64,000 nucleotides of DNA from an uncultured bacterium (lineage in GTDB: Bacteria > Vulcanimicrobiota > CADAWZ01), in assembly GCA_902790465.1 (NCBI GenBank), contig CADASF010000005.1:148622-212621 (forward strand), read 5' to 3'. Made by a program: the position numbers and the translations under genes. Below the pieces are notes generated by a model. It did no database searches. It was not told where the DNA came from and saw only the letters and a list, made by a program, of their open reading frames with translations. This document shows positions 14,831 through 54,163 of the stretch, piece after piece. Each line of letters opens with the position of its first letter. Positions within the stretch are counted from its first letter, which is position 1.

Positions 14831-17800
14831 ATGAATGATCAAAAATTTGATACAAATGAGTCTAATGCCTCCTTATCTCCAGAAAAAGAGAAAAAAAATT
14901 TTTTTTCAAGGGTTGGAGATACAGTTTCGCTTTTCTTTACAAAAGATACAAATAAAGCGATTGAAACTATAATTGATCCTGAAGCTCCGCTCTTTCAGAG
15001 AACTGCAGCAATAAAAAGTGCTGTTGTAAAAAGAAATTTGGATGCTCGAATTCCACTTATAGAAGTTGTAAAAGGCGAATACGGAGCAAATGAAGAGCTT
15101 CGCATACAAGCTGCCAAAGCACTATCTGATATTGGAGATGTATATGCCACAGACATAAAATCTTCATATTTGATAGATTTGCTTGAAATTTATCTAACAA
15201 CTATAGATAATAAATTGAGCAAAGAAATTGGCATAATTTTTCTAAAAGCAGAAGGACTTCCATATATAAAATTTATTGGAAAGACTCTTATAACAAGATT
15301 CCAAATTGATGATGATGTAAGCTCTGATGCTTGGCAGATTTTTGCGAGAGCATTAGCTTTCTCGTATGAATTTGCATTAAATGAAAATATAGAAAAAATA
15401 AGAGCTGAATTAAACAGTTTACCACAAAATATAAATAAACAAGTTCAAGTAATTGAACATGGTGCTTATTTTGTTAGAAGAATTATTAATATTCTTGATG
15501 ATTCTAGAAAAACCCTTTGTGATTATATGGCTAAAGATCCAAATGGTCAAAAATTATCAGAATTATTGATGTATCCTTCTCTTACATCTACATATCATGA
15601 AAATTCGGCAGAATTGGTTAAACATATAACTTCCATATTTGATTTTGTTCTCCATGACAAAAAAGAACTTAGAGATTTGGCAATATCTGAACTCAGAACA
15701 ATAGAGACTCCAATAGTATATGATTCTTGTAAAACACTTATCATGGACCCAGCCCCACGTTATCCTGATATATGTGAGGGATTGACTGGAGTTATAACAG
15801 AAGCGATATCGAGAGGCGATATTCTTGCAAGAAATATATTTATTTCTATGGCAAATAATCCTCCTGTTTATTGTGAAGCTTTCTTTTATTCTGAAGTAGT
15901 TAGGTTATCCAAATTAGATGAAGAATTTCATGCCAAGATGATTTCTGTTACAAAAGGATTTATAAAGCGTTCAGAAGCAAGTGATAAAGTTATAATATCA
16001 ATGCTAAGATCCGTTTTTTCTTTTAATTTGACAGAAGAAAATCTTGAATTTTTGATTTATCTTGTAACAGGAAAAGTAAAAGTTTCTATAGATGTTGCTG
16101 TTGAAACAGTTTCTCTTTTGGTACACTTAAATAAAGAAGATTTTCCATTCTACGACAAAATTTCAAAAATTTTAAAACTTTCATTGCAAAATAAAGTCCC
16201 AGATGAAATTAAATCGAGAATTATTTCAGAATCAAAAAATAATATAACAGATACAAGTTTGTCATGCCTTGAAATTGCTGCTTTTTTAGACACTCCAACA
16301 GTATCAGCAGAAGCAATAAGAGCAGTTTTTGATGTAGCAAGAAGTGGAGACATGAAATCTGATAGATTTATTGCTTTTCTGTGTAAAATGTTGAGTGATG
16401 AGAAAGTTCTTAGAGATAATATATCTCTATCTCTTGCATTTTTGAAAAATTACAAATATAGAAATTCTGCTTTGAGAGATGAAATAGCAAAATTATTGTC
16501 ATCAAATGATCAAAATTTCAGATTTGATGCTTTGATTTTGTCTTCAAAATGGCTAAAAAATTCTGAAGATGAGGATGAATTTATTCAACAACTAAAAATG
16601 TTTGTTGGCATAATACAAAATCCAGAATGGAAACACAATGATATATATCAAAAAGTATTAGATTTATTTGAGTCATTTATTTTATCTGAAGAAGAAAAAT
16701 ACAAAAAAATACAAAATTTCTTACTAAACTCAATAAGAAGTGCTTTAGGTGCTAAAATACAAGATAATTATAAAATTGCTATTTGTAGAATGTTTGAAAG
16801 CATTCTGAAAAAGGGAAATGATGATATATCTCAAAAAGCAATGATTCTGCTTGAAGATGTTATTTCTTCTAAGGATATTTCTACCGCTGTTAAATTACAT
16901 GCAATAGAATATTTTGCTGTTGATAGAGGAGAAATTGTACATATTTTACCTCAAGTTGTAACTGCTCTTAAAGATGAGAATTATGACAATAAAAGTGGAA
17001 TTTTGCTAATTTTAGTAAAAGCACTTGACAAAGTTAAAAAATATACAATTAAAGAAAAAATTAATGCACTAAAACAGGGGCAACCTGTTGAAATATGTGA
17101 GCATGTCAAATTTGAGATACTCATGGGAATGGAGATATGCCCAATATTAAATGATCTTTTAAAACTCAATTTCATGAATAGGGAATTAGTTCAAAGTGCA
17201 TTGACTCTTGCAAAATATATGGATTATGCAAGAACATTTGTAAAGTTTATTTTTGAATTTACTAATTATCCTGAAGATGAGATAATAAGAGCAAGGGCTA
17301 TAGAAACTGTTGGTGCTTTGATATATCCTCCATATACGCAAGATGAGGGTGAAATATTATTGAGCATAATGAAGACTGCAAAAGATAATAAACAACCTCA
17401 ACATATGAGAAGAGCTGCTATTTTAGCACTTGAAAAAATAGCGGATCCTGCTTTTGAAGATGTATTGAGTGAAATAGCTCTCGATAGTAAAACAAAAGAA
17501 GATTTGAGAATTTTGACAATAAATGCATTGTCTTCATTGTGTGATGAACATGTAAATGGTACATACAAAACGATATTAAAAGACCCAAATGCTTCTTGGT
17601 TAATAAAAGAATCAATAGTGAAAGTTCTAAATGATTCAATAACTTTTGATATGATTGATACCATGATTGATTTAATGACAAATGCTCCAGGAACAGTTTT
17701 TAAAAATCAAATAGCAGATGCAATGAAGGCAAGTGGATTTGAGAATGTGGTAAGAATAAAAGAATTAGATACAGCCTGTGCAAATGATATGAATAAATTA

Positions 17801-18442
17801 AATATCATGAAAATGAGTGCTGAAAGGGCAGTTGAAGAAAAACGAACTGCTGTTTTAGCTTTTGCAGCTCTTAAAGAAAAAATGAAAGAAGCAAAAGAAA
17901 AATTAGATAGCATGAAAAATGAAGTAAACATGCTTCAGGAGAAAATTCAAGAAACAGAATATAAATGGCAAACAGAAAATGCTTCAACTACTGCAAAAAT
18001 GCAACAGTTATCTGCTTCTGGAAATAAGCAAGAATATATAGCATTAAAGCAATCACTTTTGGAAAAGAAAGATGAGTATGATGATTTGGTAGATTCATCT
18101 AAATTGAGAATGAAAAGACTTGAAGAAGCTATTTCCAAGAGAAGTGAAGAATTTGAGGAATTGCAAAAAAGATATGAAGCATCTGAAAAAGAAATAGAAA
18201 GATTTGATAGACAGATAAGTAAGCCGACTTCTGAGGGAGATGAGATAAGAAAAAGAGTTGAAGAGGCAAATATGGAGAAGAAAACGCTTTATGAGGCTGT
18301 CATGAAAAATAGACCAGTAATAGAAAAAGAACTCAATAGAAGAATGGAAGAAAAAAGAAATAGAAAAGCAGAGGCTGAAGAAGAACGAGACCTTTATAAT
18401 AAATTTATATTTAGGAATATAGAAAAAAATTTAAATACCTAA
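14831..18442 (+). CDS. Large (1203 aa) HEAT-like repeat protein with a C-terminal ~250-aa coiled coil; function unknown
   Basis: It contains PBS-lyase/HEAT-type repeats (LRIQAAKALSDIGD; RRAAILALEKIADP). The C-terminus is a heptad-rich Lys/Glu coiled coil. It has no signal peptide. Confidence 0.6.
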   Translation: MNDQKFDTNESNASLSPEKEKKNFFSRVGDTVSLFFTKDTNKAIETIIDPEAPLFQRTAAIKSAVVKRNLDARIPLIEVVKGEYGANEELRIQAAKALSDIGDVYATDIKSSYLIDLLEIYLTTIDNKLSKEIGIIFLKAEGLPYIKFIGKTLITRFQIDDDVSSDAWQIFARALAFSYEFALNENIEKIRAELNSLPQNINKQVQVIEHGAYFVRRIINILDDSRKTLCDYMAKDPNGQKLSELLMYPSLTSTYHENSAELVKHITSIFDFVLHDKKELRDLAISELRTIETPIVYDSCKTLIMDPAPRYPDICEGLTGVITEAISRGDILARNIFISMANNPPVYCEAFFYSEVVRLSKLDEEFHAKMISVTKGFIKRSEASDKVIISMLRSVFSFNLTEENLEFLIYLVTGKVKVSIDVAVETVSLLVHLNKEDFPFYDKISKILKLSLQNKVPDEIKSRIISESKNNITDTSLSCLEIAAFLDTPTVSAEAIRAVFDVARSGDMKSDRFIAFLCKMLSDEKVLRDNISLSLAFLKNYKYRNSALRDEIAKLLSSNDQNFRFDALILSSKWLKNSEDEDEFIQQLKMFVGIIQNPEWKHNDIYQKVLDLFESFILSEEEKYKKIQNFLLNSIRSALGAKIQDNYKIAICRMFESILKKGNDDISQKAMILLEDVISSKDISTAVKLHAIEYFAVDRGEIVHILPQVVTALKDENYDNKSGILLILVKALDKVKKYTIKEKINALKQGQPVEICEHVKFEILMGMEICPILNDLLKLNFMNRELVQSALTLAKYMDYARTFVKFIFEFTNYPEDEIIRARAIETVGALIYPPYTQDEGEILLSIMKTAKDNKQPQHMRRAAILALEKIADPAFEDVLSEIALDSKTKEDLRILTINALSSLCDEHVNGTYKTILKDPNASWLIKESIVKVLNDSITFDMIDTMIDLMTNAPGTVFKNQIADAMKASGFENVVRIKELDTACANDMNKLNIMKMSAERAVEEKRTAVLAFAALKEKMKEAKEKLDSMKNEVNMLQEKIQETEYKWQTENASTTAKMQQLSASGNKQEYIALKQSLLEKKDEYDDLVDSSKLRMKRLEEAISKRSEEFEELQKRYEASEKEIERFDRQISKPTSEGDEIRKRVEEANMEKKTLYEAVMKNRPVIEKELNRRMEEKRNRKAEAEEERDLYNKFIFRNIEKNLNT

Positions 18443-18458: not shown

Positions 18459-19706
18459 ATGAAAAAAATATTGGTTTTGTTAGCAACAATAGCTCTTACG
18501 ATTCCTGTTTTAGTTGGTTGCGGTGGAGGTGGAGGAGGAAGCCACTATGATGGCGGTTCCTCTTATGCAATGTATGCTTTTTTACAACAACAGCAACAAC
18601 AAAATAACAATAATAATAACAATAACAATAACAATAATAATAATAACAACAATAATAATAATCAGGCTGATTCAAGTGATTCTTCGACTCCTGAGGTTAT
18701 GACAAAAAATTCTATAATAGTATCGTCTGGAGTTTATTCTGAATCTATATTTTCTGTTGTAGGCTCTGGTTTTGGATATACACAACAGTTAGGTGATGTT
18801 ACACTTACTGTAGAATCTGGAGAGGTTCCTGATTCCCTTACATATAGTATTCAAAAATGGAATAATGATTCGATTAATATAAAGTTAGATGGGCTTTCTC
18901 AAGAATTTACATCTACTCTTAGTATGAAAATTAAAACAAATGCTGGCACAGAAATTGCAGGTCCAAATATTGAAATAAAACCAATGGCAATAGATAACAA
19001 TATTGGAAATAAGGCTTATGGTATTTTTGTAGGCTCTCCTAGAACATCTATTGGTCAATATTGTGTAAAAGATGCTGAAGATGTAAAGAAGGCACTTGTT
19101 GGAAATTCATGTTTTAATTGGCAACAATCTGAATTGTTGACAACTGAAAGTGATGCTTCTCATGCTATGGTAACAAGTTTATTAGAAATCATGGCAAGTA
19201 AAATGGATGATTCTTCAACATTTATATTTTATTATTCTGGTCATGGTGCCTCTAATTATCTTCAGGTAACAGATGGATTAACTGCTTCTGAATTGGAAAC
19301 TTATTTACAGAAAATGCCAGAAAAATCTCATAAAATACTTTTGATAGATGCTTGTTCAAGTGGAAGTTTTCTTCCTAAGAATTTAAAGAAATCGAGTAAG
19401 ACTTTTAAATCTCTTTCAAGTAGTATCAAAAATTTAGCTGTGATTTCGGCAAGTGGTCCAGAAAATAACTCACAAGTTTCGATGAAATTGAATCAAAGTG
19501 AAATGACTTATGCTTTGTTAGATGCATTAGGAAGAACTAAAGATAATGTAGAAATAGATTATCTTGGTTCAGCTTTGACATTGTCTGAATTATATAATTA
19601 TATGGCTGTTCAAGATGTTTATACAAGTTTGGATGATGAATATGGAACACAGGATATATTTCCTACATTTAGAAAAACTGGAAATGATTTTTATATAAAG
19701 AGATAA
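18459..19706 (+). CDS. Lipoprotein with poly-Gln/Asn linker and C-terminal clan CD (caspase/legumain-like) cysteine peptidase domain
   Basis: It has a lipobox (LVGCGGGGG) followed by a Q6N29 run. The His in YYSGHGA and the Cys in LLIDACSSGSF are spaced ~45 aa apart, as in the caspase-type HC dyad. AAGGGGA RBS. Confidence 0.6.
   Translation: MKKILVLLATIALTIPVLVGCGGGGGGSHYDGGSSYAMYAFLQQQQQQNNNNNNNNNNNNNNNNNNNNQADSSDSSTPEVMTKNSIIVSSGVYSESIFSVVGSGFGYTQQLGDVTLTVESGEVPDSLTYSIQKWNNDSINIKLDGLSQEFTSTLSMKIKTNAGTEIAGPNIEIKPMAIDNNIGNKAYGIFVGSPRTSIGQYCVKDAEDVKKALVGNSCFNWQQSELLTTESDASHAMVTSLLEIMASKMDDSSTFIFYYSGHGASNYLQVTDGLTASELETYLQKMPEKSHKILLIDACSSGSFLPKNLKKSSKTFKSLSSSIKNLAVISASGPENNSQVSMKLNQSEMTYALLDALGRTKDNVEIDYLGSALTLSELYNYMAVQDVYTSLDDEYGTQDIFPTFRKTGNDFYIKR
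18584..18662 (+). repeat. Coding trinucleotide SSR (CAA/CAG then AAT/AAC) encoding Q6N29 in the lipoprotein linker
   Basis: Direct reading of 18581-18663. Confidence 0.9.
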
Positions 19707-19796: not shown

Positions 19797-20498
19797 ATGA
19801 AAGCACTTATTTTATCTGCAGGGCTTGGAAAAAGACTTAGACCTCTTACAGATATAATTCCAAAGCCACTTGCCGACATAAATGGCAAGCCAATTATTGA
19901 CATTATTGTTGAAAAATTAAAAAATATAGGTGTTGACGAATTTGCCTTTAATCTACATCATCTTCCAGAAAAGATAAGAGAACATTTTTCTAATTCATCT
20001 GAAAAAATGATTTTTTCTTATGAAGATGAACTTCTTGATACAGGAGGGACACTTGCTTCTTTTTCTGACTGGTTAAATGAAGATGAATTTTTGATTGTAC
20101 ATAATGGAGATATTTATTCAGATATTGATATCAAATTTTTGTTGAATAAGGCTTTAGAAAAGAATGCTCCAACATTGGCATTGATTCCAAATGGACCTGT
20201 TGGAAATGTAAAATTTTTTCCTAAAACAGAAAAAATTGTTGATTTTAGAAATTCTTTAGGTATTGATGATTCTAAATATATAAATTGTACTTTTTCTGGA
20301 ATAGCTGTTTATCCAGCAAATTTTATAAAAGAAATGCCAAAGGGTAAATATTCTGTCATTGATTATATGATTGAAAAATTAAAAGAAAAAAAGGATATTT
20401 TTGGGGTTTTGTTTGAAAATATTTATTGGAATGATATAGGAACTCATGAAGCACTTGAAGCATGTAGAAAATTTGATTTAAGAAAAGGTGTAAAATGA
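19797..20498 (+). CDS. murU: Sugar-1-phosphate nucleotidyltransferase, MurU-like (N-acetylmuramate alpha-1-phosphate uridylyltransferase-like)
   Basis: The start was reassigned to MKALILSAGLGKRLRPLT, the nucleotidyltransferase G-loop. LDTGG and TFSGIAVY blocks are present, as in MurU. The 24 upstream codons in the ORF track have no RBS. Confidence 0.65.
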   Translation: MKALILSAGLGKRLRPLTDIIPKPLADINGKPIIDIIVEKLKNIGVDEFAFNLHHLPEKIREHFSNSSEKMIFSYEDELLDTGGTLASFSDWLNEDEFLIVHNGDIYSDIDIKFLLNKALEKNAPTLALIPNGPVGNVKFFPKTEKIVDFRNSLGIDDSKYINCTFSGIAVYPANFIKEMPKGKYSVIDYMIEKLKEKKDIFGVLFENIYWNDIGTHEALEACRKFDLRKGVK

Positions 20499-21460
20499 TA
20501 GGCTCTGAAAAGTTGAATGAATTTTTAAATGATTTTTTTGAAGGAAAAAAATTTGATTTTGATGAGATATGCAAGGGTGGATCAGATAGAAAATTTTATA
20601 GAGTTTCAAATTTGAATAAGTCTTGCATTTTATCAATTTCTTCAGATTTTGAAGAATATCGTTATTATTGTGCCTTTGCTCGTTATTTTAGGGAGCATGG
20701 CATTTGTATTCCTGAATTTTATTTTACTATTCCTGAGGAAGGAATAGCAGTTATGTTTGATGCAGGAACAGAATCTCTTTGTGATTATACACAGAAACAC
20801 TCTGATGGTGAAAATTTTGCAATTTATTCAAAAGTTATTGAGAAATTGTTCGATTTTCAGGAAATGGATTTTAATAATTGTCTTGAAATATCTGAAAGAC
20901 AATTTGATTATGAGGCTATTTTGTGGGAAACTTCGTATTTTTCACAATTTTTTTTAAATCAATATTCAAAAATAGAAGATATTCCAGATGAGGTAAAAGA
21001 GGAATTTTTAAATTTGGCAAAAATTCTTTCTAAATTGCCAAGAGTTCCAATGCATAGGGATTTTCAATCACAAAATATTTTTATTAAAGATGGTGAAATA
21101 TACTTTATAGATTTTCAGGGAGCAAGATTGGGAAACAGATTTTATGATTTAGCTTCCCTTATAAGAGATCCTTATGTTAAATTGAGTCGTGGAACTAAAC
21201 ATTCTCTTGAAAATATATTTTTGGAAAAATTGGCAGATAAAACAGGTGAAAAATATTCATATTTGATGAATATGTTCTCTTTAAATTCTGCTTCAAGATT
21301 GATGCAAGCTCTTGGAGCTTATGCCAATTTAGGGCTAAATAAACATAAAACGCAATTTTTAAATTACATAGAACCTGGATTGAAAAATTTGTCTATTGTT
21401 TTAGAAAATTGTTCAATATTGAAAAATACTTATAATTTTTTATCAAACAGGGTTATTTAA
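20495..21460 (+). CDS. amgK: Aminoglycoside-phosphotransferase-fold kinase, AmgK-like anomeric MurNAc/GlcNAc kinase (or choline-kinase-like)
   Basis: It has the APH/ChoK catalytic loop HRDFQSQNIFI and the FIDFQGA metal-binding motif. An ATGA overlap with the upstream nucleotidyltransferase gene indicates translational coupling. Confidence 0.6.
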   Translation: MIGSEKLNEFLNDFFEGKKFDFDEICKGGSDRKFYRVSNLNKSCILSISSDFEEYRYYCAFARYFREHGICIPEFYFTIPEEGIAVMFDAGTESLCDYTQKHSDGENFAIYSKVIEKLFDFQEMDFNNCLEISERQFDYEAILWETSYFSQFFLNQYSKIEDIPDEVKEEFLNLAKILSKLPRVPMHRDFQSQNIFIKDGEIYFIDFQGARLGNRFYDLASLIRDPYVKLSRGTKHSLENIFLEKLADKTGEKYSYLMNMFSLNSASRLMQALGAYANLGLNKHKTQFLNYIEPGLKNLSIVLENCSILKNTYNFLSNRVI

Positions 21461-21515
21461 TAATTAGATAGAATATAAAAAGTTGAAATTAAAGAAAATG
21501 TCGGAGGATTTTTTT

Positions 21516-23171
21516 ATGTTGAAAAATTTAACTGCAGCTCTTATTGTTGCAGGTGTCATGACTACAGCCGCATTTGCTCAAAATGTAGATGTAAAATCAG
21601 CTATAAATGATTTATCAAATAGAAGTGGATCTGTTCGTCAAAATGCAGTAATGATTTTAGGTTCTTCAAATGATAGAAGCGTTGTTTCCAATATTGAAAG
21701 ATTGGCTTACGATTCAGATTCTGGAGTTAGAACAGCTGTATGTTGGGCTCTTGGTCAATTTAAATCTCCGACAAGTGAAAATGTTTTAAATTCGCTCGCA
21801 AGAGATTCAAGACCAGAAGTTAGACAGGCTGCTGTAAACGCACTTGGAAATTACAAAAGTGTTGCAACAGGAGAAACTTTGATTAGAGCCACCTATGATT
21901 CAGATGTAAATGTTAGAAAAAGTGCTATAAATTCACTTGCTATAGTAAAATATGAGCTTGCAGGTCCTAGACTTTCAACTCTTCTCTCTGATTCTAATCC
22001 AGATGTCAGAGCAGCAGCTGCTATAGCCATGAAGAGCATGAATTATAGTGCTCCTTCTTCAATGGTTGCCAATAAATTAAAAGACCCAGATTCAAGAGTT
22101 AGAACTGGTGCCGCACAGAATTTAGGAAATTCAGGAAAAGACGATAATATTTCTATCATTGTTCCAGGATTAAGTGATTTAAATCCTTCAGTAAGAGCTA
22201 ATGCCGCAACTTCTTTGGGAGATACAAAAAGTGACAAGGCTATTCCTTATCTTGTAAAAGCTCTTGGTGATAGAACTGATAGTGTTGGTCTTTCAGCTGC
22301 TGCAGCACTTTCAAAAGTTGGACCTTCATCTGTTCCACAAATTGTTGACAAACTTGAATCTTCAGAAACTCGTGTTCAAAAACATTGTATAAGAGCTCTT
22401 GCAGGAATGGGTGAAACAAATGTTGATCTTCTTTCCGAATATTCAAAAAGACCAGAGTTAAGAGAAATTTCTATTTGGGGACTTGGAGAGACAAAATCTT
22501 CAAAAGCATTCCCTGCAATTTTTGATGGTTTTTCTGATAATGATGAAAAAATTCAACTCACAGCATCAGAAGCTATGGGTAAGGTTGGTTCATCTGTTCT
22601 TGAAAATTTGAAGAAAGAAAAAGAAAATCCAAATGAAATAGTTAGAAAAAATATAGCAAAATCTTTGGGATTTATGCCTTATGAAGAAGATGTTGCTAAA
22701 TTTCTTGTCGAGTTGATGGCAGATGATAAGGAAACTGTAACAGCTGAGGCTTCTGTATCACTTTCTAAATATGGTGAATCAGTAAAACCTCTCTTGTTGG
22801 AAACATTGAAATCAAATGATGAAATGCAGAGAACAGGTGCTATAAATGCTCTTGCATTGATGGGAAAAGAATGTGCTCCAACACTTAGAGAATGTTTAAA
22901 AGACAAAAGTTCTAAAGTTAGAGCTGGTGCTGCTTTAGGTCTTGGACAAATGGGAGATACTGTTTGTGCAAATGATATAGTACAACTTTTTGAAAATGAC
23001 AATGATCCAGAAGTAAAGCGTGCATGTGCTTGGACTATTGGAAAAGTTTGTAAACCTTCAGATGAACTCATGAAAAGGCTTGTATTGGAAAAAACAAGAG
23101 CTGGTGGTAAGAAACTCCCTGCACTTCAAAAGACAATAGAAGATACAATAAGAATTTTTGAAGGTAAATAA
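21516..23171 (+). CDS. Secreted PBS-lyase HEAT-repeat protein
   Basis: The start was reassigned to MLKNLTAALIVAGVMTTAAFA, a signal peptide with a GGAGGA RBS 7 nt upstream. It contains about 15 tandem HEAT-like repeats (D..VR..A..ALG). Confidence 0.7.
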   Translation: MLKNLTAALIVAGVMTTAAFAQNVDVKSAINDLSNRSGSVRQNAVMILGSSNDRSVVSNIERLAYDSDSGVRTAVCWALGQFKSPTSENVLNSLARDSRPEVRQAAVNALGNYKSVATGETLIRATYDSDVNVRKSAINSLAIVKYELAGPRLSTLLSDSNPDVRAAAAIAMKSMNYSAPSSMVANKLKDPDSRVRTGAAQNLGNSGKDDNISIIVPGLSDLNPSVRANAATSLGDTKSDKAIPYLVKALGDRTDSVGLSAAAALSKVGPSSVPQIVDKLESSETRVQKHCIRALAGMGETNVDLLSEYSKRPELREISIWGLGETKSSKAFPAIFDGFSDNDEKIQLTASEAMGKVGSSVLENLKKEKENPNEIVRKNIAKSLGFMPYEEDVAKFLVELMADDKETVTAEASVSLSKYGESVKPLLLETLKSNDEMQRTGAINALALMGKECAPTLRECLKDKSSKVRAGAALGLGQMGDTVCANDIVQLFENDNDPEVKRACAWTIGKVCKPSDELMKRLVLEKTRAGGKKLPALQKTIEDTIRIFEGK

Positions 23172-23193
23172 TTTATTATAATAATTGTTAAAA

Positions 23194-23233
23194 TTAAGAA
23201 CTCGCAATTAATTTTACGAGTTCTTAATTTTTT
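23194..23233 (+). terminator. Rho-independent terminator after HEAT-repeat gene
   Basis: TTAAGAACTCG-caattaatttta-CGAGTTCTTAA is followed by TTTTTT. Confidence 0.7.
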
Positions 23234-23261
23234 GTTTGTTTGTCATTAATATAACTTGTTG

Positions 23262-23389
23262 TGTTATTTAAAAATAGTAGTTTTTCTTATAAAGTTCCAT
23301 AATTATTATTCTTAGTTTTTAGGTATAAGTCGCTCACTAGTTCTTTTTTTTCCGCATATTATAGTTATAATTGCAAGAATCGTTCGCCG
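23262..23389. repeat. ~125-bp intergenic repeat element, copy A (begins with the TAACTTGTTGTGTTATTTA motif)
   Basis: It is ~93% identical to 63818..63941. An inverted copy of the terminal motif (TAACTAACACAACGA) lies at 23435..23449. Confidence 0.8.
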
Positions 23390-23495
23390 ACTTACACCGT
23401 AAAAACTCTTTTACCTGCTAAATAGATAAAAAAATAACTAACACAACGATTTGAAATAATATTATAAAAAATGTTGAAAAGAAGGACTTAAAAAA

Positions 23496-24890
23496 ATGAA
23501 ACACATACACATGATTGCTATTTGCGGAACTGGCATGGGAGCTTTTGCAGGTCTTCTCGTACAGTCTGGTTATAAAGTTACTGGCTCTGATCAAAATGTA
23601 TATCCTCCAATGAGTACAAAATTAATGGAATTGGGAATAAAATTGATGTCTCCATTTTCAGCTGAAAATATAGCAGATAAGCCTGATTTAGTTATTGTTG
23701 GAAATGCTGTTAGAAGAACAAATCCAGAGGCTATTGCTGTTATGGACAGTGGTATTCCATATATGTCTTTTCCACAAGCACTTGGTGAATTTTTCTTAAA
23801 AGACAGAAAATCACTTGTTGTAGCAGGAACACATGGTAAGACAACAACATGTTCAATGACAGCATGGATTCTTGAACATGCCCAAAAAGACCCAAGTTTT
23901 TTGATTGGTGGAGTTTTAAATAATTTTGATAGCAACTGCAAGCTCGGAAAAGGTGAATATTTTGTTGTTGAAGGTGATGAATATGATACAGCATTTTTTG
24001 ACAAAGGACCAAAATTCATGCACTATGCTCCAACGAGTGCTATTTTGACAAGTGTTGAATTTGACCATGGCGATATTTATAAAGATATCGACCACATAAA
24101 AAGTGCTTTTTCAAAATTTTTAAAATTGATACCAAAAGATGGTTATTTGATTGCATGCAAAGATTTTGTCCATGTCAATGAGATTCTTCCAGAAGCCTCA
24201 TGTAATGTTGAGACTTATGGTTTTTCTGAAGGTGCTGATTGGACTGCTGAAAACATAAAATTGGGTGTTGAAAGTTCTTATGATCTTACTTACAAAGGCA
24301 AAAAATTGTGTGAAGTTGTTTTAAAAGTACCTGGAAAACACAATATTTTAAATTCTGTTGCTGCTTCAGCTCTTCTCTATCACAAGGGAGTTACACCACA
24401 GGAATGTTCAGATGCTTTGAAAGAATATACAGGAGTTAAAAGACGCCAAGAAGTAAGAGGAATTGTAAATGGAATAACTGTACTTGACGATTTTGCACAT
24501 CATCCAACAAAAGTAAAAGCAACTGTTGATGCAATTAAGTCAAAATATCCAAATAATAGAGTTTGGGCTATTTTTGAGCCTCGCACAAATTCAAGTAGAA
24601 GGGCATTTTTCCAAAAAGACTATGTAAATTCTTTTGATTCTGCAGATTTAATTGTAATTGCCGATGTTTTTAATAAAGAACAAATCGACGAAACAGAAAG
24701 ATTCAGCAGTGAAAAACTTTCAAGAGATCTTGTTGAAAGAGGCAAAAATTCAAAGTGTATCCCAAATGCAGATGAGATAGTGAAATATGTCGCTGAAAAT
24801 GCTTCTTCTGGTGATGTGATATTGATCATGTCAAATGGCGGTTTTGACAACATCCATGAAAAATTGTTGGAAGAATTGAAGAAACATTAG
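23496..24890 (+). CDS. mpl: UDP-N-acetylmuramate:L-alanyl-gamma-D-glutamyl-meso-diaminopimelate ligase (murein peptide ligase)
   Basis: The N-terminal ICGTGMG...GSDQNVYPPMST block closely matches E. coli Mpl (DANVYPPMST). The Mur ligase P-loop GTHGKTTT is present. Length is 464 aa. Confidence 0.8.
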   Translation: MKHIHMIAICGTGMGAFAGLLVQSGYKVTGSDQNVYPPMSTKLMELGIKLMSPFSAENIADKPDLVIVGNAVRRTNPEAIAVMDSGIPYMSFPQALGEFFLKDRKSLVVAGTHGKTTTCSMTAWILEHAQKDPSFLIGGVLNNFDSNCKLGKGEYFVVEGDEYDTAFFDKGPKFMHYAPTSAILTSVEFDHGDIYKDIDHIKSAFSKFLKLIPKDGYLIACKDFVHVNEILPEASCNVETYGFSEGADWTAENIKLGVESSYDLTYKGKKLCEVVLKVPGKHNILNSVAASALLYHKGVTPQECSDALKEYTGVKRRQEVRGIVNGITVLDDFAHHPTKVKATVDAIKSKYPNNRVWAIFEPRTNSSRRAFFQKDYVNSFDSADLIVIADVFNKEQIDETERFSSEKLSRDLVERGKNSKCIPNADEIVKYVAENASSGDVILIMSNGGFDNIHEKLLEELKKH

Positions 24891-25027: not shown

Positions 25028-25663
25028 ATGAATACAAAAATTTTTGAAAAAATAAAAAGATATGGTGTAAAGGCACTGACACAATCTGAACTTTTGACAG
25101 CAACTTCACTTGATAAAGGTGATATTTACAATAGGCTTATGGCTTCTGTTGATGTTGATGAGTTTCAAACTTTTGATTTAAACTATTCAAAAGATAAGAA
25201 ACTTGCTGTATATATGTGTTTTTCAGAGATGATAAGAAGAAGAAAAGCATGTACAGATAGAAAAATAAGATGCACATCTGATGCTGTTCCATATTTTTTG
25301 GAATATGCAGATATGAATAAGGAATATTTTATAGTATTGACATTAAATGGGGCAAATGAACTGATAAAAAAACATGTCATAACTATTGGACTTGCAAATA
25401 AAACACAGATTCACCCAAGAGAGATTTTTTCTGAGGCTATAGCAGACAGAGCATGTTTTATCATTGCAGGACACAATCATCCATCAGGTTCATTAGAACC
25501 AAGTGTTGAAGACCTTGCAGTAACTGAAAAAATAAAAGTTACAGGTGATATAATAGGAATCAAAGTTTTAGACCATATAATTTTTTCAAAAAAAGGTCAT
25601 TTCAGTATTTTTCACTTAGATTCACTTGAAGAAAAAAATAGGAAATTATTTTATGAAAATTGA
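25028..25663 (+). CDS. radC: RadC-family JAB/MPN domain protein (UPF0758)
   Basis: The JAMM motif HNHPSGSLEPSVED and an N-terminal HhH-like LTQSELLATSL are present. AAGGAG RBS. Confidence 0.85.
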   Translation: MNTKIFEKIKRYGVKALTQSELLTATSLDKGDIYNRLMASVDVDEFQTFDLNYSKDKKLAVYMCFSEMIRRRKACTDRKIRCTSDAVPYFLEYADMNKEYFIVLTLNGANELIKKHVITIGLANKTQIHPREIFSEAIADRACFIIAGHNHPSGSLEPSVEDLAVTEKIKVTGDIIGIKVLDHIIFSKKGHFSIFHLDSLEEKNRKLFYEN

Positions 25664-26270
25664 AGTAAAATATTCAAAAGAACCATATAACGAGGCAATA
25701 CAAAAAAAAGAGAGTTCCATAAAACTGCTTGAATACAATGGCAATAATATTCCAAAAGATATGGCTACTTTTTATGATTTGTATTGGAATGAAAATGGAT
25801 TTTATGCTCATTTTATATCTTTTCACAATGGACAGATTAAATTTTGTCCAAAAGAAACTGAAATTTCACAAAATGGAAAGACTTTTAAACTTTGGGCTAT
25901 AAGTGAAGTTTGTGAAATATTTATTTCACATGACAAATTGGATTTTTACAGAGAATTTGAATTTGCACCTGATGGTCGCTTTCTCGATATTGATATTAAA
26001 TATATTGAAGGAAATAGAAAAACTGATTTTTATTGGGTATCAAATCTTGAATATAAATCAGAAGTTCATGAGAATTACTGGGATGGTTTTGCCTTTATTC
26101 CTTGGAGTGCTTTTGACAATAAATTTCCAAAAGTTGGCGATATCTGGCATGGAAATTTTTATAGAATTTTGACAAGAGATGAAAAGGAATTATATTTGGC
26201 TTGGAATCCTGTATATAAAATTAATTTTCATCAACCACAATATTTTGGGGAGATTCTTTTTGTAAAATGA
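25653..26270 (+). CDS. Hypothetical protein (no recognisable motifs)
   Basis: The start was reassigned to MKIEVKYSK with an AGGAAA RBS. It overlaps the radC 3' end by 11 nt. Aromatic-rich soluble protein. Confidence 0.5.
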   Translation: MKIEVKYSKEPYNEAIQKKESSIKLLEYNGNNIPKDMATFYDLYWNENGFYAHFISFHNGQIKFCPKETEISQNGKTFKLWAISEVCEIFISHDKLDFYREFEFAPDGRFLDIDIKYIEGNRKTDFYWVSNLEYKSEVHENYWDGFAFIPWSAFDNKFPKVGDIWHGNFYRILTRDEKELYLAWNPVYKINFHQPQYFGEILFVK

Positions 26271-26854
26271 GTTTACCGACAAACAGTGAATCAGATTCAG
26301 TAAATGCAATTAATATTTTAATTGATGAGCCACAACATTTTAAAGCTGAAAAAACGATAGATTTTTCTGGGGCTATTGGGGGGGCAATTTTTGTCTTTTT
26401 TATGTTTGGATTTCCTTTTTTACTATCTCTTGGAAAATCAACTCCTGAATCTTCAGTATCTCCTCTAATTTTTGTTTTAATATTACCTATTGTATTTTTT
26501 CTTTTTTATTATAATACTCAACATCAAAGACATTCTGTTATAGAAGTGAAAAATGATATTATTTCTACATTTGAAAAAACAATTTTTGGAAAAATAGTAA
26601 ATAATGTACAGGCTAAACTTGACATAAATATGATGACAGAAGTAAAAAAAATTGTTCATGAAAAAATTATAGAAAGATATACTAATAAAGAAAAAGATGT
26701 TGTTACTTATGTTGTAATATATCGAACTATAAATTTCAAAGATCAAAATTATAAATCTTGTGATATTATTTCAGGGCTTAGTGAAGAAGAGGCAAATTTT
26801 TTATCAAATAAAATAAATGAAATGATTTTAAGAAAAAGACAACAGGTTAGTTAG
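26267..26854 (+). CDS. Hypothetical membrane protein (2 TM plus a soluble C-terminal domain)
   Basis: ATGA start/stop overlap with the upstream gene. It has two hydrophobic helices between residues 35 and 85. Confidence 0.5.
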   Translation: MSLPTNSESDSVNAINILIDEPQHFKAEKTIDFSGAIGGAIFVFFMFGFPFLLSLGKSTPESSVSPLIFVLILPIVFFLFYYNTQHQRHSVIEVKNDIISTFEKTIFGKIVNNVQAKLDINMMTEVKKIVHEKIIERYTNKEKDVVTYVVIYRTINFKDQNYKSCDIISGLSEEEANFLSNKINEMILRKRQQVS

Positions 26855-26862
26855 GAAAAAAA

Positions 26863-27798
26863 ATGTTCTCGTTTTTATTTAAGAAAAAAAATAAAGATAC
26901 AGATGATAAATTTGAGAAAACTGAATATTCACAAAATGAGTTTCTAAAATTGGCTAAAAATAGGAATGAAGCAAAATATAAATATCTATTTCAAGAGCCT
27001 TTTGTAAATTTTGATGGTAAAACAAAAGACACAGACCGTGATTTTTCAGATATTGTTGCTGAATTGATTGAAAGTGGAAAGATAAATTTTTCTTTAAATC
27101 CTATTGACAAAAATTCAGAAGTTAAATTGGAAACTCCCCTGCATTTAAAAACAGAAAAAGTTGATTATGCCTCTTATACTAATGGCAAATTTATTGGTTC
27201 TGAAGAAAAAATTGCAGGTCGTCTTTTTGAAATTAATGCTACAGCAGAGATATTTGGTGAATTATGTGAAGTTTGTGATTTTTCAGTTCCTGTAAATAAC
27301 AATGGAAAAGAAAATTCAGATGGAAAAATAGATGTTATTTTTTCTTCAAAGGGATTTCATGTTCCTGATTTTCTCAATACAAATGATAAAAAGTTTTTGG
27401 AGTCTGAGGATCCTTTCTGTCAATATATTGCTTGGATATATGGGAATTTAAAAAAATATCCTAAAAGCCTTGTTGTTTCATCTGTTAAATATAGTGGTAA
27501 TAATGACAGTTTGTTAAAATGTATCCTTGAAATTGAAACATTTTACAGGAAAATACCTCATGATAGATTGAGAGCCTGTTACCATAGAGACTGGATAAGA
27601 AAAGCTATACTTGTATTTGATGATTCAAGAGCCTATTCCGAATATCTTTCATTTGGTTTTAATTCTGTAAAAAAATTGCTTGAAAAATGGGAAATTGCTG
27701 TTTTGACATTAAAAGAGTATTATCTTGATTGTGAGCCACAGTTGAATGAATATTCAATAAATTCTATTTCTCATATATACAGGGCTTATAAAAAATAA
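26863..27798 (+). CDS. Hypothetical protein
   Basis: It begins 9 nt after the upstream stop and ends at a strong bidirectional terminator. No known motifs. Confidence 0.5.
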   Translation: MFSFLFKKKNKDTDDKFEKTEYSQNEFLKLAKNRNEAKYKYLFQEPFVNFDGKTKDTDRDFSDIVAELIESGKINFSLNPIDKNSEVKLETPLHLKTEKVDYASYTNGKFIGSEEKIAGRLFEINATAEIFGELCEVCDFSVPVNNNGKENSDGKIDVIFSSKGFHVPDFLNTNDKKFLESEDPFCQYIAWIYGNLKKYPKSLVVSSVKYSGNNDSLLKCILEIETFYRKIPHDRLRACYHRDWIRKAILVFDDSRAYSEYLSFGFNSVKKLLEKWEIAVLTLKEYYLDCEPQLNEYSINSISHIYRAYKK

Positions 27799-29122: not shown

Positions 29123-30529
29123 ATGGGATTAATAAAAGCAGGAATTGATGCTGTAATGGGAACTTTAAAAGACCAATGGAAAGAATATTTCTATTGTGAA
29201 GCTCTTCCAGTTGATGTACTTGTAAGTAAAGGACAAAAGAAAGTACAAAGAGGCGGAAATAAAGGTGATGACAATGCTATAAGTGATGGTTCAGTAATTG
29301 CTGTAGCAGACGGTCAATTTATTATAATTGTTGAAAATGGACTTATTGTAGATTTTTCAGGAGAACCTGGAGAATTTGTATATAGAAACAATGTACAACC
29401 CAGTCTTTTTTCAGGAGAGGATGGTCTTGGTGAAAAATTGAAAAAGACTTTCTCTCAAATTGGAAAAAGATTCACATTTGGTGGGGAAACACCAGGAGTT
29501 CAAAGAGTTTATTTCTTCAACAAAAAAGAGATAATGGGAAACAAATATGGCACTCCAAATCCTGTTCCATTCAGAGTTGTTGACAAAAATATTGGATTAG
29601 ATGTTGACATATCAATAAGATGTCATGGTGAGTATTCTTACAGAATAACCGATCCTATGTTATTCTACAAAAATGTTTGTGGAAATGTAGAATATGAATA
29701 TAAGCGTTCACAGATTGACAGCCAGTTAAAATCAGAATTGATGACAGCTCTTCAACCTGCATTTGCAAAAATTTCCGAGATGGGAATAAGATATAGTGCA
29801 CTACCAGGTCACACATTTGAAATTGCAGATGCACTCAACGAAGTTCTTTCTAAGAAATGGAGAGAAAAAAGAGGAATTGAGATAGTTGAATTCGGAGTAA
29901 ATGGAGTAAATGCTTCTCCTGAAGATGAAGCTATGATCAAACAAATGCAGAAAAAAGCTGTCTACAGAAATGCAGATATGGCAATGGCTGGAATGGTAGA
30001 TGCTCAAAATGAAGCATTAGTAGGTGCAGCAAACAATAAAGCAGGAGCTATGCAGGGATTCATGGCAATGAATATGATGCCAGGTGGCGGTGGTGCCAAT
30101 TTGGGTAACCTCATAATGCAACAACAACAGATGCAACAACAGCAACAAATGCAACAGCAAGCTCCTCCAGCAGCTCAAAAAGCAGGTTGGACTTGTTCAT
30201 GTGGTGCTGTAAATACAGCTAAATTCTGTGCTGAATGTGGCAAACCACAACCAGCTCCAAAAGCAAGTTGGACTTGTTCATGTGGTGCTGTAAATACAGG
30301 TAAATTCTGTGCTGAATGTGGTGCAAAACAACCAGCTCCAAAAGCAAGCTGGACTTGTTCATGTGGTGCTGTAAATACAGGCAAATTCTGTGCTGAATGT
30401 GGTGCAAAACAACCACAAGACCTTCACTATAAATGTGATAAATGCGGTTGGGAACCAACACCTGGTGCAAAGATTCCAAAATTCTGTCCAGAATGTGGCG
30501 ATCCAATAAATGAAAACGATTTAGTTTAG
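29123..30529 (+). CDS. SPFH/Band-7-like protein (YdjI-like) with Met/Gln-rich linker and three tandem C-terminal zinc ribbons
   Basis: It has an N-terminal MGLIKAGIDAVMGT SPFH-like domain. The C-terminus repeats WTCSCGAVNTxKFCAECG three times, then a fourth CDKCG...CPECG ribbon. AAGGAGA RBS. Confidence 0.6.
   Translation: MGLIKAGIDAVMGTLKDQWKEYFYCEALPVDVLVSKGQKKVQRGGNKGDDNAISDGSVIAVADGQFIIIVENGLIVDFSGEPGEFVYRNNVQPSLFSGEDGLGEKLKKTFSQIGKRFTFGGETPGVQRVYFFNKKEIMGNKYGTPNPVPFRVVDKNIGLDVDISIRCHGEYSYRITDPMLFYKNVCGNVEYEYKRSQIDSQLKSELMTALQPAFAKISEMGIRYSALPGHTFEIADALNEVLSKKWREKRGIEIVEFGVNGVNASPEDEAMIKQMQKKAVYRNADMAMAGMVDAQNEALVGAANNKAGAMQGFMAMNMMPGGGGANLGNLIMQQQQMQQQQQMQQQAPPAAQKAGWTCSCGAVNTAKFCAECGKPQPAPKASWTCSCGAVNTGKFCAECGAKQPAPKASWTCSCGAVNTGKFCAECGAKQPQDLHYKCDKCGWEPTPGAKIPKFCPECGDPINENDLV
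30178..30414 (+). repeat. Three tandem 81-nt near-identical repeats encoding zinc-ribbon modules
   Basis: Repeat units begin at ~30178, 30259 and 30340, with only a few substitutions between them. Repeat symmetry produces a spurious antisense ORF. Confidence 0.9.
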
Positions 30530-54059: not shown

Positions 54060-54086
54060 CTTCAGTCTTAAAAGCCTGGAATCAAT

Positions 54087-54163
<77 letters not shown>

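What the first reader, a model, noticed from the sequence alone, without database searches (positions are those of the whole stretch)
19797..24890. MurU-like and AmgK-like genes clustered with Mpl: a cell-wall recycling / UDP-MurNAc salvage module
A nucleotidyltransferase resembling MurU (LDTGG...TFSGIAV...) is translationally coupled (ATGA) to an APH-fold kinase resembling AmgK. Murein peptide ligase Mpl lies two genes downstream, separated by a secreted HEAT-repeat protein. In Pseudomonas, AmgK plus MurU convert MurNAc to UDP-MurNAc and bypass MurA, which confers intrinsic fosfomycin resistance. Finding the pair next to mpl in an unrelated AT-rich organism suggests a consolidated recycling locus. 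The alternative reading is a LicA/LicC-like choline kinase plus cytidylyltransferase, which would decorate surface glycans with phosphocholine.
Basis: partly seen in the sequence, partly recalled or inferred. Interest (0 to 1): 0.5.

Follow-up and report, generated by a model that had tools for sequence, protein, structure and literature searches.

The report
MurNAc salvage gene pair beside Mpl
An uncultured rumen bacterium (Candidatus Xenobia) carries a coupled sugar kinase and nucleotidyltransferase pair that most likely recycles the cell-wall sugar MurNAc into UDP-MurNAc; this is an ordinary, widespread pathway, and its position near the peptide ligase Mpl looks specific to this lineage.

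Summary
A 233-aa nucleotidyltransferase (19797-20498) overlaps a 321-aa APH-fold kinase (20495-21460) by ATGA. An exported HEAT protein and then Mpl follow.

Sequence, profile and predicted-fold searches all place the transferase nearest MurU. They place the kinase nearest the AmgK family and PDB 3csv, not LicA/LicC.

Both proteins hit the same amgK-murU loci in Acinetobacter, Aeromonas, Legionella, Halomonas and Bacteroidales. In 55 of 78 related loci the transferase sits directly upstream of the kinase. One genome fuses the two. In 14 loci from nine phyla the exo-N-acetylmuramidase NamZ precedes the pair, which points to MurNAc as the substrate.

The pair is a divergent member: it scores below NCBIfam cut-offs, has the motif HRDFQSQN, and has the reverse gene order.

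The ligase is Mpl-like: 41% identity to E. coli Mpl against 31% to MurC.

The idea of a "consolidated locus" is weak. A strong terminator hairpin and a 324-nt spacer separate Mpl from the HEAT gene. Mpl lies near the pair only in this species (1 of 83 loci). The HEAT gene is unlinked in other relatives. No other recycling gene lies in the 64 kb.

This is a new member of a known kind, of modest interest.

The parts
19797..20498 (+). MurU-like sugar-1-phosphate nucleotidyltransferase. It is 233 aa and single-domain, with no C-terminal beta-helix extension.
   Evidence: Pfam NTP_transferase E = 6e-22. The best NCBIfam hit is MurU NF045761, full length, at 133 bits; the next family scores 78 bits. 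The best PDB sequence hits are MurU 8hhd and 4y7t. The AF2 model has pLDDT 95.9. Its top four fold hits are MurU structures, with TM 0.82-0.89 and rmsd 2.2-2.9 A. It shares these motifs with Pseudomonas MurU: GxGxRLRPLT, PKPL, L(D/E)TGG, NGD, TFSGI and WxDIGT.
20495..21460 (+). AmgK-like anomeric sugar kinase, 321 aa, APH fold. The catalytic loop is H187-R-D189-FQSQ-N194 and the Mg-binding residue is D206 (IDFQG).
   Evidence: Pfam APH E = 1.7e-12. AmgK models are the two best NCBIfam hits (45.6 and 41.2 bits); weaker hits to other APH-fold families follow. The best PDB hit is 3csv, which itself scores 271 bits on AmgK model NF045698. The clade profile hits 3csv at 2.8e-38, and the next PDB hit is at 1.5e-3. 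The AF2 model has pLDDT 95.0. Its top fold hit is 3csv, with E = 5.5e-15 and TM 0.79.
20495..20498 (+). ATGA stop/start overlap between the transferase and the kinase (translational coupling).
   Evidence: Read directly from the sequence. The known pairs show the same 4-nt overlap in the opposite gene order: Xanthomonas, Parabacteroides and Legionella.
21516..23171 (+). Exported HEAT-repeat protein, 551 aa. It is a neighbour, probably not a functional partner.
   Evidence: HEAT_2 E = 2.8e-77. A signal-peptide-like N-terminus is visible. It is 67% identical, without gaps, to the gene downstream of the pair in L001. However, orthologues at 73%, 45% and 45% identity lie in unrelated contexts.
23190..23242 (+). 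Intrinsic-terminator-like hairpin with a 15-bp stem, followed by a U-rich tail, directly after the HEAT gene.
   Evidence: RNA fold gives -17.9 kcal/mol and z = -4.8, with 0 of 200 shuffles folding as well. The first 83 nt of the spacer are 90% conserved in L007, while the middle roughly 200 nt are not. The simple terminator scanner missed it because it counted the interrupted stem as a 12-nt loop.
23496..24890 (+). Mpl-like murein peptide ligase, 464 aa. It is probably a separate transcription unit.
   Evidence: All three Mur ligase domains are present. TIGR01081 (mpl) scores 444.9 against a cut-off of 388.7, but TIGR01082 (murC) also passes at 374.5 against 335.1. The best PDB hit is 3hn7 at 4.7e-94. 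Identity is 41% (359 bits) to E. coli Mpl and 31% (209 bits) to E. coli MurC. It shares with E. coli Mpl the segment DEYDxAFFDKxxKF, which is a 7-residue gap in the MurC alignment.

Best explanation
[quoted passage not shown] The kinase uses ATP to phosphorylate free MurNAc (and possibly GlcNAc) at the anomeric C1 hydroxyl. The transferase then joins MurNAc-alpha-1-phosphate to UTP, giving UDP-MurNAc and bypassing MurA/MurB. The nearby but separately transcribed Mpl can ligate recycled L-Ala-gamma-D-Glu-mDAP tripeptide onto UDP-MurNAc. What is shown: fold, catalytic motifs, nearest families, gene coupling, and a conserved link to NamZ in relatives. What is inferred: the sugar, the nucleotide, and any effect on fosfomycin. 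The host is an uncultured rumen Candidatus Xenobia (Vulcanimicrobiota/Eremiobacterota).
For: (1) Nearest families. The transferase scores 133 bits on MurU and 78 on the next family. AmgK models are the kinase's two best NCBIfam hits (45.6 and 41.2 bits); the remaining seven hits, to other APH-fold families, are weaker.
(2) Solved structures. MurU 8hhd/4y7t are the best sequence hits. The predicted fold matches MurU first, with TM 0.82-0.89. The kinase clade profile hits 3csv at 2.8e-38 and everything else at 1.5e-3 or worse. 3csv is also the top fold hit and is itself AmgK-like (271 bits on NF045698).
(3) Paired hits. Searched independently, the kinase and the transferase hit adjacent genes in the same records: Acinetobacter, Aeromonas, Legionella, Halomonas, Shinella, Parabacteroides, Bacteroides and Phocaeicola. 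In Xanthomonas the neighbour of the homologous phosphotransferase is annotated MurU.
(4) Coupling. The ATGA overlap is real. The transferase lies directly upstream of the kinase in 55 of 78 loci. One Fibrobacteria protein of 515 aa fuses the two.
(5) Substrate clue. NamZ (Pfam PF07075/PF20732) lies directly upstream of the pair in 14 of 71 loci from nine named phyla, including the closest relatives L001, L004 and L005. NamZ is an exo-beta-N-acetylmuramidase that releases MurNAc (PMC8054146).
(6) Calibration. The Parabacteroides pair scores 71 and 146 bits on the same models, similar to the window's 45.6 and 133. Parabacteroides belongs to Tannerellaceae, and Tannerella forsythia AmgK/MurU are used functionally (PMC10941766, PMC7670621).
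(7) JGI names several homologues N-acetylmuramate 1-kinase and MurNAc alpha-1-phosphate uridylyltransferase.
Against: Both proteins fall well below the NCBIfam equivalog cut-offs: 45.6 against 550, and 133 against 250. Identity to characterised enzymes is only about 23-33%. A profile of the transferase clade scores MurU, GDP-mannose pyrophosphorylases and tlr0611 almost equally, at 168-184 bits. The transferase alone therefore does not fix the sugar or the nucleotide. NamZ, the main substrate clue, is absent from this 64-kb window. So are nagZ, ampG, anmK, mupP and murQ. The gene order is the reverse of the characterised systems. No enzyme of this clade has been assayed.
Confidence: 0.75

Rival explanations
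1. The pair salvages or activates a different sugar, for surface-glycan synthesis rather than UDP-MurNAc. Examples would be GlcNAc or GalNAc to a UDP-HexNAc, or a mannose- or heptose-type GDP-sugar.
For: The transferase clade profile scores GDP-mannose pyrophosphorylases (7whr, 8yre, 7x8j, 7d72) and tlr0611 as high as MurU. Related transferases in L004 and L005 carry a GMPPB-type C-terminal domain, and L004's scores 146 bits on a mannose-1-P guanylyltransferase model against 129 on MurU. Most related loci have no NamZ (57 of 71). Pseudomonas AmgK is named as a MurNAc/GlcNAc kinase (PMC10941766).
Against: The window protein on its own scores MurU well above every other family (133 against 78 bits). 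It lacks the C-terminal domain, and its four best fold matches are all MurU. The kinase's only strong relatives are AmgK-type. Where a glycosidase is linked to the pair, it is the MurNAc-specific NamZ.
Confidence: 0.18
2. The pair is a LicA/LicC-like choline kinase plus CTP:phosphocholine cytidylyltransferase that decorates surface glycans with phosphocholine.
For: Both families share the general folds (APH-like kinase, Rossmann-like transferase). LicC 1jyk matches the N-terminal nucleotide-binding loop (E = 7e-10, residues 1-61).
Against: There is no Pfam Choline_kinase hit at E <= 0.01. No choline kinase or LicA appears among the 60 best-scoring PDB chains listed in the kinase clade-profile search, the weakest of which had E = 0.57. 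By fold, LicA 4r7b ranks 23rd (E = 5e-9, TM 0.58), against 3csv at 5.5e-15 and TM 0.79. LicC aligns only over about 60-70 N-terminal residues and is absent from the top 50 fold hits. No licB/licD-like genes lie nearby.
Confidence: 0.02
3. The transferase, kinase, HEAT protein and Mpl form one co-selected, co-regulated recycling cluster. On this view the adjacency is not incidental.
For: The chemistry fits: MurU's product UDP-MurNAc is Mpl's substrate. All four genes are on the same strand within 5.1 kb, and the arrangement is kept in the conspecific MAG L007. The HEAT gene also follows the pair in L001.
Against: A strong terminator-like hairpin (z = -4.8) and a 324-nt spacer precede Mpl. The middle of that spacer is not conserved even within the species. 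No Mpl/MurC homologue lies within 10 kb or less (as far as each contig extended) of the kinase in the other 82 loci. HEAT orthologues sit in unrelated contexts in L092, L093 and L094; L092 comes from the same genome as L005, whose pair is on another contig.
Confidence: 0.2

Closest known systems
AmgK/MurU anabolic MurNAc recycling pair of Pseudomonas putida and P. aeruginosa (MurU structures 4y7t and 8hhd; also Legionella, Acinetobacter, Xanthomonas)
   Same: An APH-fold kinase is paired with a minimal, single-domain nucleotidyltransferase of about 220-245 aa. The genes are adjacent with a 4-nt overlap. Transferase motifs are shared, and so are the kinase catalytic HRD...N and IDFQ motifs. MurU is the best sequence and fold match for the transferase.
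   Different: Identity is only about 28-33% for the transferase and 23-27% for the kinase. The gene order is reversed, with the transferase first. The kinase loop reads HRDFQSQN/IDFQG, against HRDYHSRN/IDFQD or HRDFMPRN/LDFQD. There is no lptD-surA neighbourhood. Scores fall below NCBIfam cut-offs. The host phylum is Vulcanimicrobiota.
Bacteroidales (Tannerellaceae) AmgK-MurU pair, used functionally from Tannerella forsythia (PMC10941766, PMC7670621)
   Same: It lies at a similar distance from the Pseudomonas-type models: Parabacteroides scores 71 and 146 bits against the window's 45.6 and 133. It is host-associated and anaerobic, and its genes also overlap.
   Different: The Parabacteroides kinase comes first and carries a C-terminal RapZ-like domain (476 aa). 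Identity to the window proteins is 28% and 32%. Orthology of the Parabacteroides pair to the T. forsythia enzymes is inferred from taxonomy and was not tested.
Mpl, UDP-MurNAc:L-Ala-gamma-D-Glu-mDAP ligase (E. coli; Psychrobacter 3hn7)
   Same: It has three Mur ligase domains. TIGR01081 scores above its cut-off. It is 41% identical to E. coli Mpl over the full length. It has the Mpl-type segment DEYDxAFFDKxxKF and the NVYPPMST motif.
   Different: It also passes the MurC model cut-off (374.5 against 335.1), which E. coli Mpl does not (273.5). It is therefore intermediate between the two, and exclusive Mpl function is not proven.
NamZ-linked peptidoglycan sugar recycling (B. subtilis namZ operon; T. 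forsythia NamZ1/2)
   Same: In relatives of this locus, NamZ sits directly upstream of the pair. This suggests NamZ releases MurNAc for the kinase.
   Different: No NamZ lies in this window. The characterised T. forsythia NamZ enzymes carry predicted signal peptides (10.1101/2021.12.02.470905), whereas the linked NamZs begin directly with the conserved domain. Muller et al. report that NamZ is mostly missing where AmgK/MurU occur (PMC8054146).
LicA/LicC phosphocholine pathway
   Same: Only the general folds are shared.
   Different: There is no family-level sequence match, and the fold rank is poor.

Membership tests
AmgK (anomeric MurNAc/GlcNAc kinase) | APH/protein-kinase-like fold with catalytic loop HxDxxxxN and a downstream Mg-binding Asp | tested here: met
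   H187-R-D189-FQSQ-N194 and D206 are invariant in 30 clade members. The AF2 model has pLDDT 95, and every hit listed (top 50) has the APH-type kinase fold.
AmgK (anomeric MurNAc/GlcNAc kinase) | Score above the curated NCBIfam equivalog cut-off (NF045759 at 550; NF045698 at 500) | tested here: not met
   The scores are 45.6 and 41.2 bits. The cut-offs are very narrow, however: the Xanthomonas kinase gene adjacent to a PGAP-annotated murU (259 bits) and the Legionella adelaidensis kinase in the lptD-surA context (263 bits) also fail, as does Parabacteroides (71 bits).
AmgK (anomeric MurNAc/GlcNAc kinase) | Closer to AmgK than to any other characterised APH-fold family | tested here: met
   AmgK models are the two best NCBIfam hits; the other seven are weaker. 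The clade profile hits AmgK-like 3csv at 2.8e-38, and the next PDB chain at 1.5e-3. A neighbour-joining tree places the clade next to Bacteroidales and proteobacterial AmgKs, but that tree had no non-AmgK outgroup.
AmgK (anomeric MurNAc/GlcNAc kinase) | Genetically coupled to a MurU-type nucleotidyltransferase | tested here: met
   ATGA overlap. Adjacent in 55 of 78 loci. Fused in P0101. Both proteins hit the same known loci.
AmgK (anomeric MurNAc/GlcNAc kinase) | ATP-dependent phosphorylation of MurNAc (and GlcNAc) at C1 | not testable with these tools
   This needs an enzyme assay. The only indirect support is the NamZ linkage in relatives.
MurU (MurNAc-alpha-1-P uridylyltransferase) | Minimal single-domain sugar nucleotidyltransferase with a MurU-like fold | tested here: met
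   It is 233 aa with no C-terminal domain. Its top four Foldseek hits are MurU structures, with TM 0.82-0.89 and rmsd 2.2-2.9 A.
MurU (MurNAc-alpha-1-P uridylyltransferase) | Motifs shared with Pseudomonas MurU (GxGxRxxPLT, PKPL, LETGG, NGD, TFSGI, WxDxGT) | tested here: met
   Alignment A2 shows LDTGG in place of LETGG, with TFSGIAV and WNDIGT present. The MurU structure paper was not available, so these motifs come from the alignment, not from published substrate contacts.
MurU (MurNAc-alpha-1-P uridylyltransferase) | Score above the NCBIfam NF045761 cut-off (250) | tested here: not met
   The score is 133.1 bits. Legionella adelaidensis (237.9) and Parabacteroides (146.2) also fail; Xanthomonas passes at 265.
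MurU (MurNAc-alpha-1-P uridylyltransferase) | Clearly closer to MurU than to other sugar-1-P nucleotidyltransferases | tested here: inconclusive
   The single sequence favours MurU (133 against 78 bits; PDB 72.6 against 64.6 bits for HddC). The clade profile, however, ties MurU with GDP-mannose pyrophosphorylases and tlr0611.
MurU (MurNAc-alpha-1-P uridylyltransferase) | UTP and MurNAc-alpha-1-P specificity | not testable with these tools
   This needs an enzyme assay.
Mpl (murein peptide ligase) | Three Mur ligase domains and a score above the TIGR01081 cut-off | tested here: met
   Pfam Mur_ligase, Mur_ligase_M and Mur_ligase_C all hit. TIGR01081 scores 444.9 against 388.7.
Mpl (murein peptide ligase) | Distinguishable from the paralogue MurC | tested here: inconclusive
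   It is closer to E. coli Mpl (41%, 359 bits) than to MurC (31%, 209 bits) and has the Mpl-type insertion. The best PDB hit is 3hn7. It nevertheless also exceeds the MurC cut-off (374.5 against 335.1), unlike E. coli Mpl. Whether the genome has a separate murC is unknown.
LicA/LicC phosphocholine pathway | Kinase matches the choline kinase family, and the transferase matches LicC over its full length | tested here: not met
   There is no PF01633 hit. No choline kinase appears among the 60 best-scoring PDB chains listed for the clade profile. LicA has fold rank 23. LicC matches only residues 1-61/73.
   A terminator-like hairpin and a 324-nt spacer intervene. Mpl is near the pair in 1 of 83 loci. 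No nagZ, ampG, anmK, mupP, murQ or namZ lies in the window. Transcription itself was not measured.

The most novel reading that the evidence does not exclude
The window pair belongs to a large, uncharacterised branch of the AmgK/MurU family. This branch has the kinase motif HRDFQSQN and places the transferase first. In at least nine phyla it forms an operon with a NamZ that lacks a signal peptide. That would define a cytoplasmic route from an imported MurNAc-terminated glycan or disaccharide, through MurNAc, to UDP-MurNAc. Such a route is not described in the literature I could read, which states that NamZ is mostly absent where AmgK/MurU occur. In host-associated Xenobia the pair plus Mpl might even replace MurA/MurB, giving MurNAc auxotrophy as in Tannerella.
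Probability: 0.3. Interest if true: 0.45.

Novelty: new member of a known kind. Interest (0 to 1): 0.3.

Why it matters
The finding extends the AmgK/MurU salvage route to a barely studied, uncultured, rumen-associated lineage (Candidatus Xenobia). It shows that the curated family models miss a large divergent branch, present in at least 586 species-level genomes. If the enzymes work as predicted, the organism could bypass MurA and would be intrinsically less sensitive to fosfomycin. The enzymes could also be useful for metabolic labelling of cell walls with MurNAc probes. The recurring NamZ-transferase-kinase operon in relatives is a testable lead on how uncultured bacteria scavenge wall sugars. 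The specific claim of a consolidated locus with Mpl does not add much.

Tried and rejected
(1) The HEAT protein as a third component. It is 67% identical in L001, downstream of the pair there too. Orthologues at 73%, 45% and 45% identity lie elsewhere, so it was rejected.
(2) Something functional in the HEAT-Mpl spacer. Rfam at a permissive threshold found nothing there. The middle of the spacer is not conserved in L007.
(3) NamZ in the window. tblastn with three NamZ queries found none.
(4) Other conserved neighbours of the kinase. Clustering 888 neighbouring ORFs gave only clade-specific genes, such as a metallo-beta-lactamase-fold protein, a tail-specific protease and Wzi.
(5) Published MurU substrate-contact residues. 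The JBC structure paper is not held, so motifs were taken from my own alignment.
(6) The transferase clade profile as a discriminator. It ties MurU with GDP-mannose pyrophosphorylases.
(7) A tree with LicA, NahK and similar outgroups. I had no way to fetch those sequences.
(8) The simple terminator scan missed the hairpin because the interrupted stem was counted as a long loop. Folding recovered it.

Full report
**Observation.** The region holds four co-directional ORFs exactly as described.
- The transferase starts at ATG 19797, behind an AGGGG ribosome-binding site, and ends at 20498.
- The kinase ATG at 20495 overlaps the transferase stop codon as ATGA.
- The HEAT-repeat gene most likely starts at ATG 21516, behind GGAGGA, and ends at 23171. 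Its N-terminus looks like a Sec signal peptide; this was judged by eye.
- The ligase gene is at 23496-24890.

**Organism.** A genome-collection scan found a 96%-identical kinase, with the same gene order, in the MAG 'Candidatus Xenobia bacterium ruminal_MAG_271' (L007). Candidatus Xenobia is a class of the phylum Vulcanimicrobiota, also called Eremiobacterota. The window has about 31% G+C.

**The transferase.**
- Pfam gives NTP_transferase.
- In NCBIfam the best, full-length hit is MurU NF045761 at 133 bits. The next family scores 78 bits. The score is below the 250-bit cut-off.
- The best PDB sequence hits are MurU 8hhd and 4y7t (E about 4e-19), then HddC (1e-16). LicC matches only residues 1-61.
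- An AlphaFold model built on 34 homologues has pLDDT 95.9. Its four best Foldseek matches are all MurU structures, with TM 0.82-0.89 and rmsd 2.2-2.9 A.
- An alignment with Pseudomonas, Xanthomonas, Legionella and Parabacteroides proteins shows the shared motifs GxGxRLRPLT, PKPL, L(D/E)TGG, NGD, TFSGI and WxDIGT.
- Caveat: a profile of the wider clade scores MurU, GDP-mannose pyrophosphorylases and tlr0611 about equally, at 168-184 bits. The transferase alone therefore does not fix the substrate.

**The kinase.**
- Pfam gives APH.
- The two AmgK models are the best NCBIfam hits (45.6 and 41.2 bits), far below their cut-offs; weaker hits to other APH-fold families follow.
- Those cut-offs are very narrow. 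The Xanthomonas kinase next to an annotated murU scores 259 bits, and the Legionella adelaidensis kinase in the classical lptD-surA context scores 263 bits. Both also fail.
- The Parabacteroides (Tannerellaceae) pair scores 71 and 146 bits, much like the window pair. Tannerella forsythia AmgK/MurU are used functionally (PMC10941766, PMC7670621).
- A 30-sequence clade profile hits PDB 3csv at 2.8e-38. The next chain, an APH(3'), is at 1.5e-3. No choline kinase or LicA appears among the 60 best-scoring chains listed, the weakest of which had E = 0.57.
- 3csv itself scores 271 bits on AmgK model NF045698.
- The kinase model has pLDDT 95.0. It matches 3csv first (E = 5.5e-15, TM 0.79); LicA ranks 23rd.
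- The catalytic residues H187, D189, N194 and D206 are invariant in the clade.

**Gene-pair evidence.**
- Searched independently against the plasmid collection, which includes mislabelled chromosomes, the kinase and the transferase hit adjacent genes in the same records. These are Acinetobacter, Aeromonas, Legionella, Halomonas, Shinella, Parabacteroides, Bacteroides and Phocaeicola.
- Across 83 non-redundant related loci, the transferase lies directly upstream of the kinase in 55 of the 78 that have enough upstream sequence.
- In one Fibrobacteria genome the two are a single 515-aa protein.
- The family is common. At least 586 species-representative genomes encode a relative carrying the motif used for the scan.

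**Substrate clue.**
- In the nearest relatives outside the species (L001, L004, L005), a NamZ gene sits immediately upstream of the pair.
- The same holds in 11 further loci. The 14 loci are labelled Eremiobacterota/Vulcanimicrobiota, Armatimonadota, Thermodesulfobacteriota, Fibrobacterota, Elusimicrobiota, Krumholzibacteriia, Nitrospira, Eisenbacteria and a Pseudomonadota MAG.
- NamZ is an exo-beta-N-acetylmuramidase that releases MurNAc (PMC8054146). This is the best available argument that the sugar is MurNAc.
- NamZ is not in this window.

**The ligase.**
- It has all three Mur ligase domains.
- It passes the Mpl model (444.9 against 388.7) but also the MurC model (374.5 against 335.1).
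- For calibration, E. coli Mpl scores 915 on Mpl and 273.5 on MurC, and E. coli MurC scores 182.5 and 609.7. The window protein leans towards Mpl but is intermediate.
- It is 41% identical to E. coli Mpl (359 bits) and 31% identical to E. coli MurC (209 bits).
- It shares with E. coli Mpl the segment DEYDxAFFDKxxKF, which is a gap in the MurC alignment.
- Its best solved relative is 3hn7. From memory, 3hn7 is the Psychrobacter Mpl, although it was deposited under a MurC name.

**Is it one locus?**
- Directly after the HEAT gene there is a 15-bp-stem hairpin followed by a U-rich tail. It folds at -17.9 kcal/mol with z = -4.8. A 324-nt spacer follows.
- The hairpin region and the Mpl ribosome-binding region are conserved in L007. 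The middle roughly 200 nt are not.
- Rfam finds nothing in the spacer.
- No Mpl/MurC homologue lies within the fetched flanks of any of the other 82 kinase loci.
- The HEAT protein is 67% identical, without gaps, to the gene after the pair in L001. Orthologues at 73%, 45% and 45% identity sit in unrelated neighbourhoods. One of these comes from the same genome as L005 but lies on a different contig from its pair.
- Pfam scans of nearly all the larger ORFs found only housekeeping and unrelated genes. There is no nagZ, ampG, anmK, mupP, murQ, ldcA or ampD.
- The conserved unit is therefore the two-gene pair. Its adjacency to Mpl is chemically sensible, but it is specific to this lineage and probably not an operon.

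**Mechanism.** Free MurNAc is phosphorylated at C1 by the kinase. The transferase uridylylates it to UDP-MurNAc. UDP-MurNAc then enters the Mur ligase pathway, or is joined directly to a recycled tripeptide by Mpl. What is shown: folds, catalytic motifs, family proximity, coupling and context. What is inferred: the sugar, the nucleotide, the physiological role and any effect on fosfomycin.

**Novelty.** This is a new, divergent member of a known pathway. It differs from the characterised systems in four ways:
- the gene order is reversed;
- the kinase loop reads HRDFQSQN/IDFQG;
- identity to characterised enzymes is low;
- the host phylum is new for this pathway.

The most interesting by-product concerns NamZ. 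Relatives carry a NamZ-transferase-kinase operon whose NamZ lacks a signal peptide. The characterised T. forsythia NamZs have predicted signal peptides (10.1101/2021.12.02.470905), and NamZ was reported as mostly missing where AmgK/MurU occur (PMC8054146).

Noticed in passing
L001 8065-9228; L004 7846-9024; L005 7886-9058; also L009-L011, L030, L038, L045-L048, L080, L083: A NamZ (exo-N-acetylmuramidase family) gene lies directly upstream of the transferase-kinase pair in 14 loci from nine named phyla. These NamZs start straight into the conserved domain with no signal peptide, unlike the T. forsythia enzymes with predicted signal peptides. The published survey says NamZ is mostly absent where AmgK/MurU occur.
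   Followed up: partly
L004 9017-9970; L005 9116-10000; many hits: Most related transferases are about 295-330 aa and carry a C-terminal GMPPB-type beta-helix domain. The window protein and L001's (233-240 aa) lack it, as does Pseudomonas MurU. This suggests domain loss in the Xenobia branch.
   Followed up: partly
P0101 / L014 9368-10891: A single 515-aa protein in Fibrobacteria bacterium GUT31 joins the transferase (N-terminal) and the kinase (C-terminal). The called N-terminus lacks the GxGxR loop, so the start may be miscalled.
   Followed up: partly
L089 4920-6350 (Parabacteroides distasonis): The Bacteroidales AmgK-like kinase is fused to a C-terminal RapZ-like domain (residues 330-465). 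The record names the whole protein 'RNase adapter RapZ', which is probably a misannotation.
   Followed up: no
window 18459-19706: A lipoprotein (lipobox LVGC) has a Gly run, a long poly-Gln/poly-Asn tract and a caspase (Peptidase_C14) domain. It lies immediately upstream of the transferase and is conserved in L007.
   Followed up: no
window 14831-18442: A 1203-aa protein combines HEAT repeats with a long C-terminal coiled coil that gives a weak SMC-like hit. Its function is unknown, and it is 97% conserved in L007.
   Followed up: no
window 23255-23456: The middle of the HEAT-Mpl spacer has no counterpart in the conspecific MAG L007, which has a different stretch of about 308 nt there. The flanking terminator and ribosome-binding regions are 90-97% conserved.
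   Followed up: partly
window 29123-30529: An SPFH/Band-7 protein has a Gln-rich linker and three near-identical tandem zinc-ribbon repeats (WTCSCGAVNTxKFCAECG), followed by a fourth, divergent one.
   Followed up: no
window 45264-51872 (- strand): A 2202-aa multidomain protein carries ketosynthase, acyltransferase and two FabA-like dehydratase domains. It resembles a polyunsaturated-fatty-acid or polyketide synthase subunit.
   Followed up: no
window 1922-3427 (- strand); L094 17633-19141: A single 501-aa protein fuses transaldolase and ribose-5-phosphate isomerase B. The PFK / TAL-RpiB / SBP_bac_5 gene trio is syntenic with L094, where it lies only about 4.6 kb from the HEAT orthologue. This indicates frequent rearrangement in the lineage.
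   Followed up: no
window 53985-54767: A cluster of eight tRNA genes (Pro, Arg, His, Lys x2, Leu, Gly x2) lies upstream of trigger factor, clpP and clpX.
   Followed up: no
window 25028-25663: A RadC-like JAB-domain gene lies directly downstream of Mpl, followed by several small ORFs with no family match (26267-27798).
   Followed up: no
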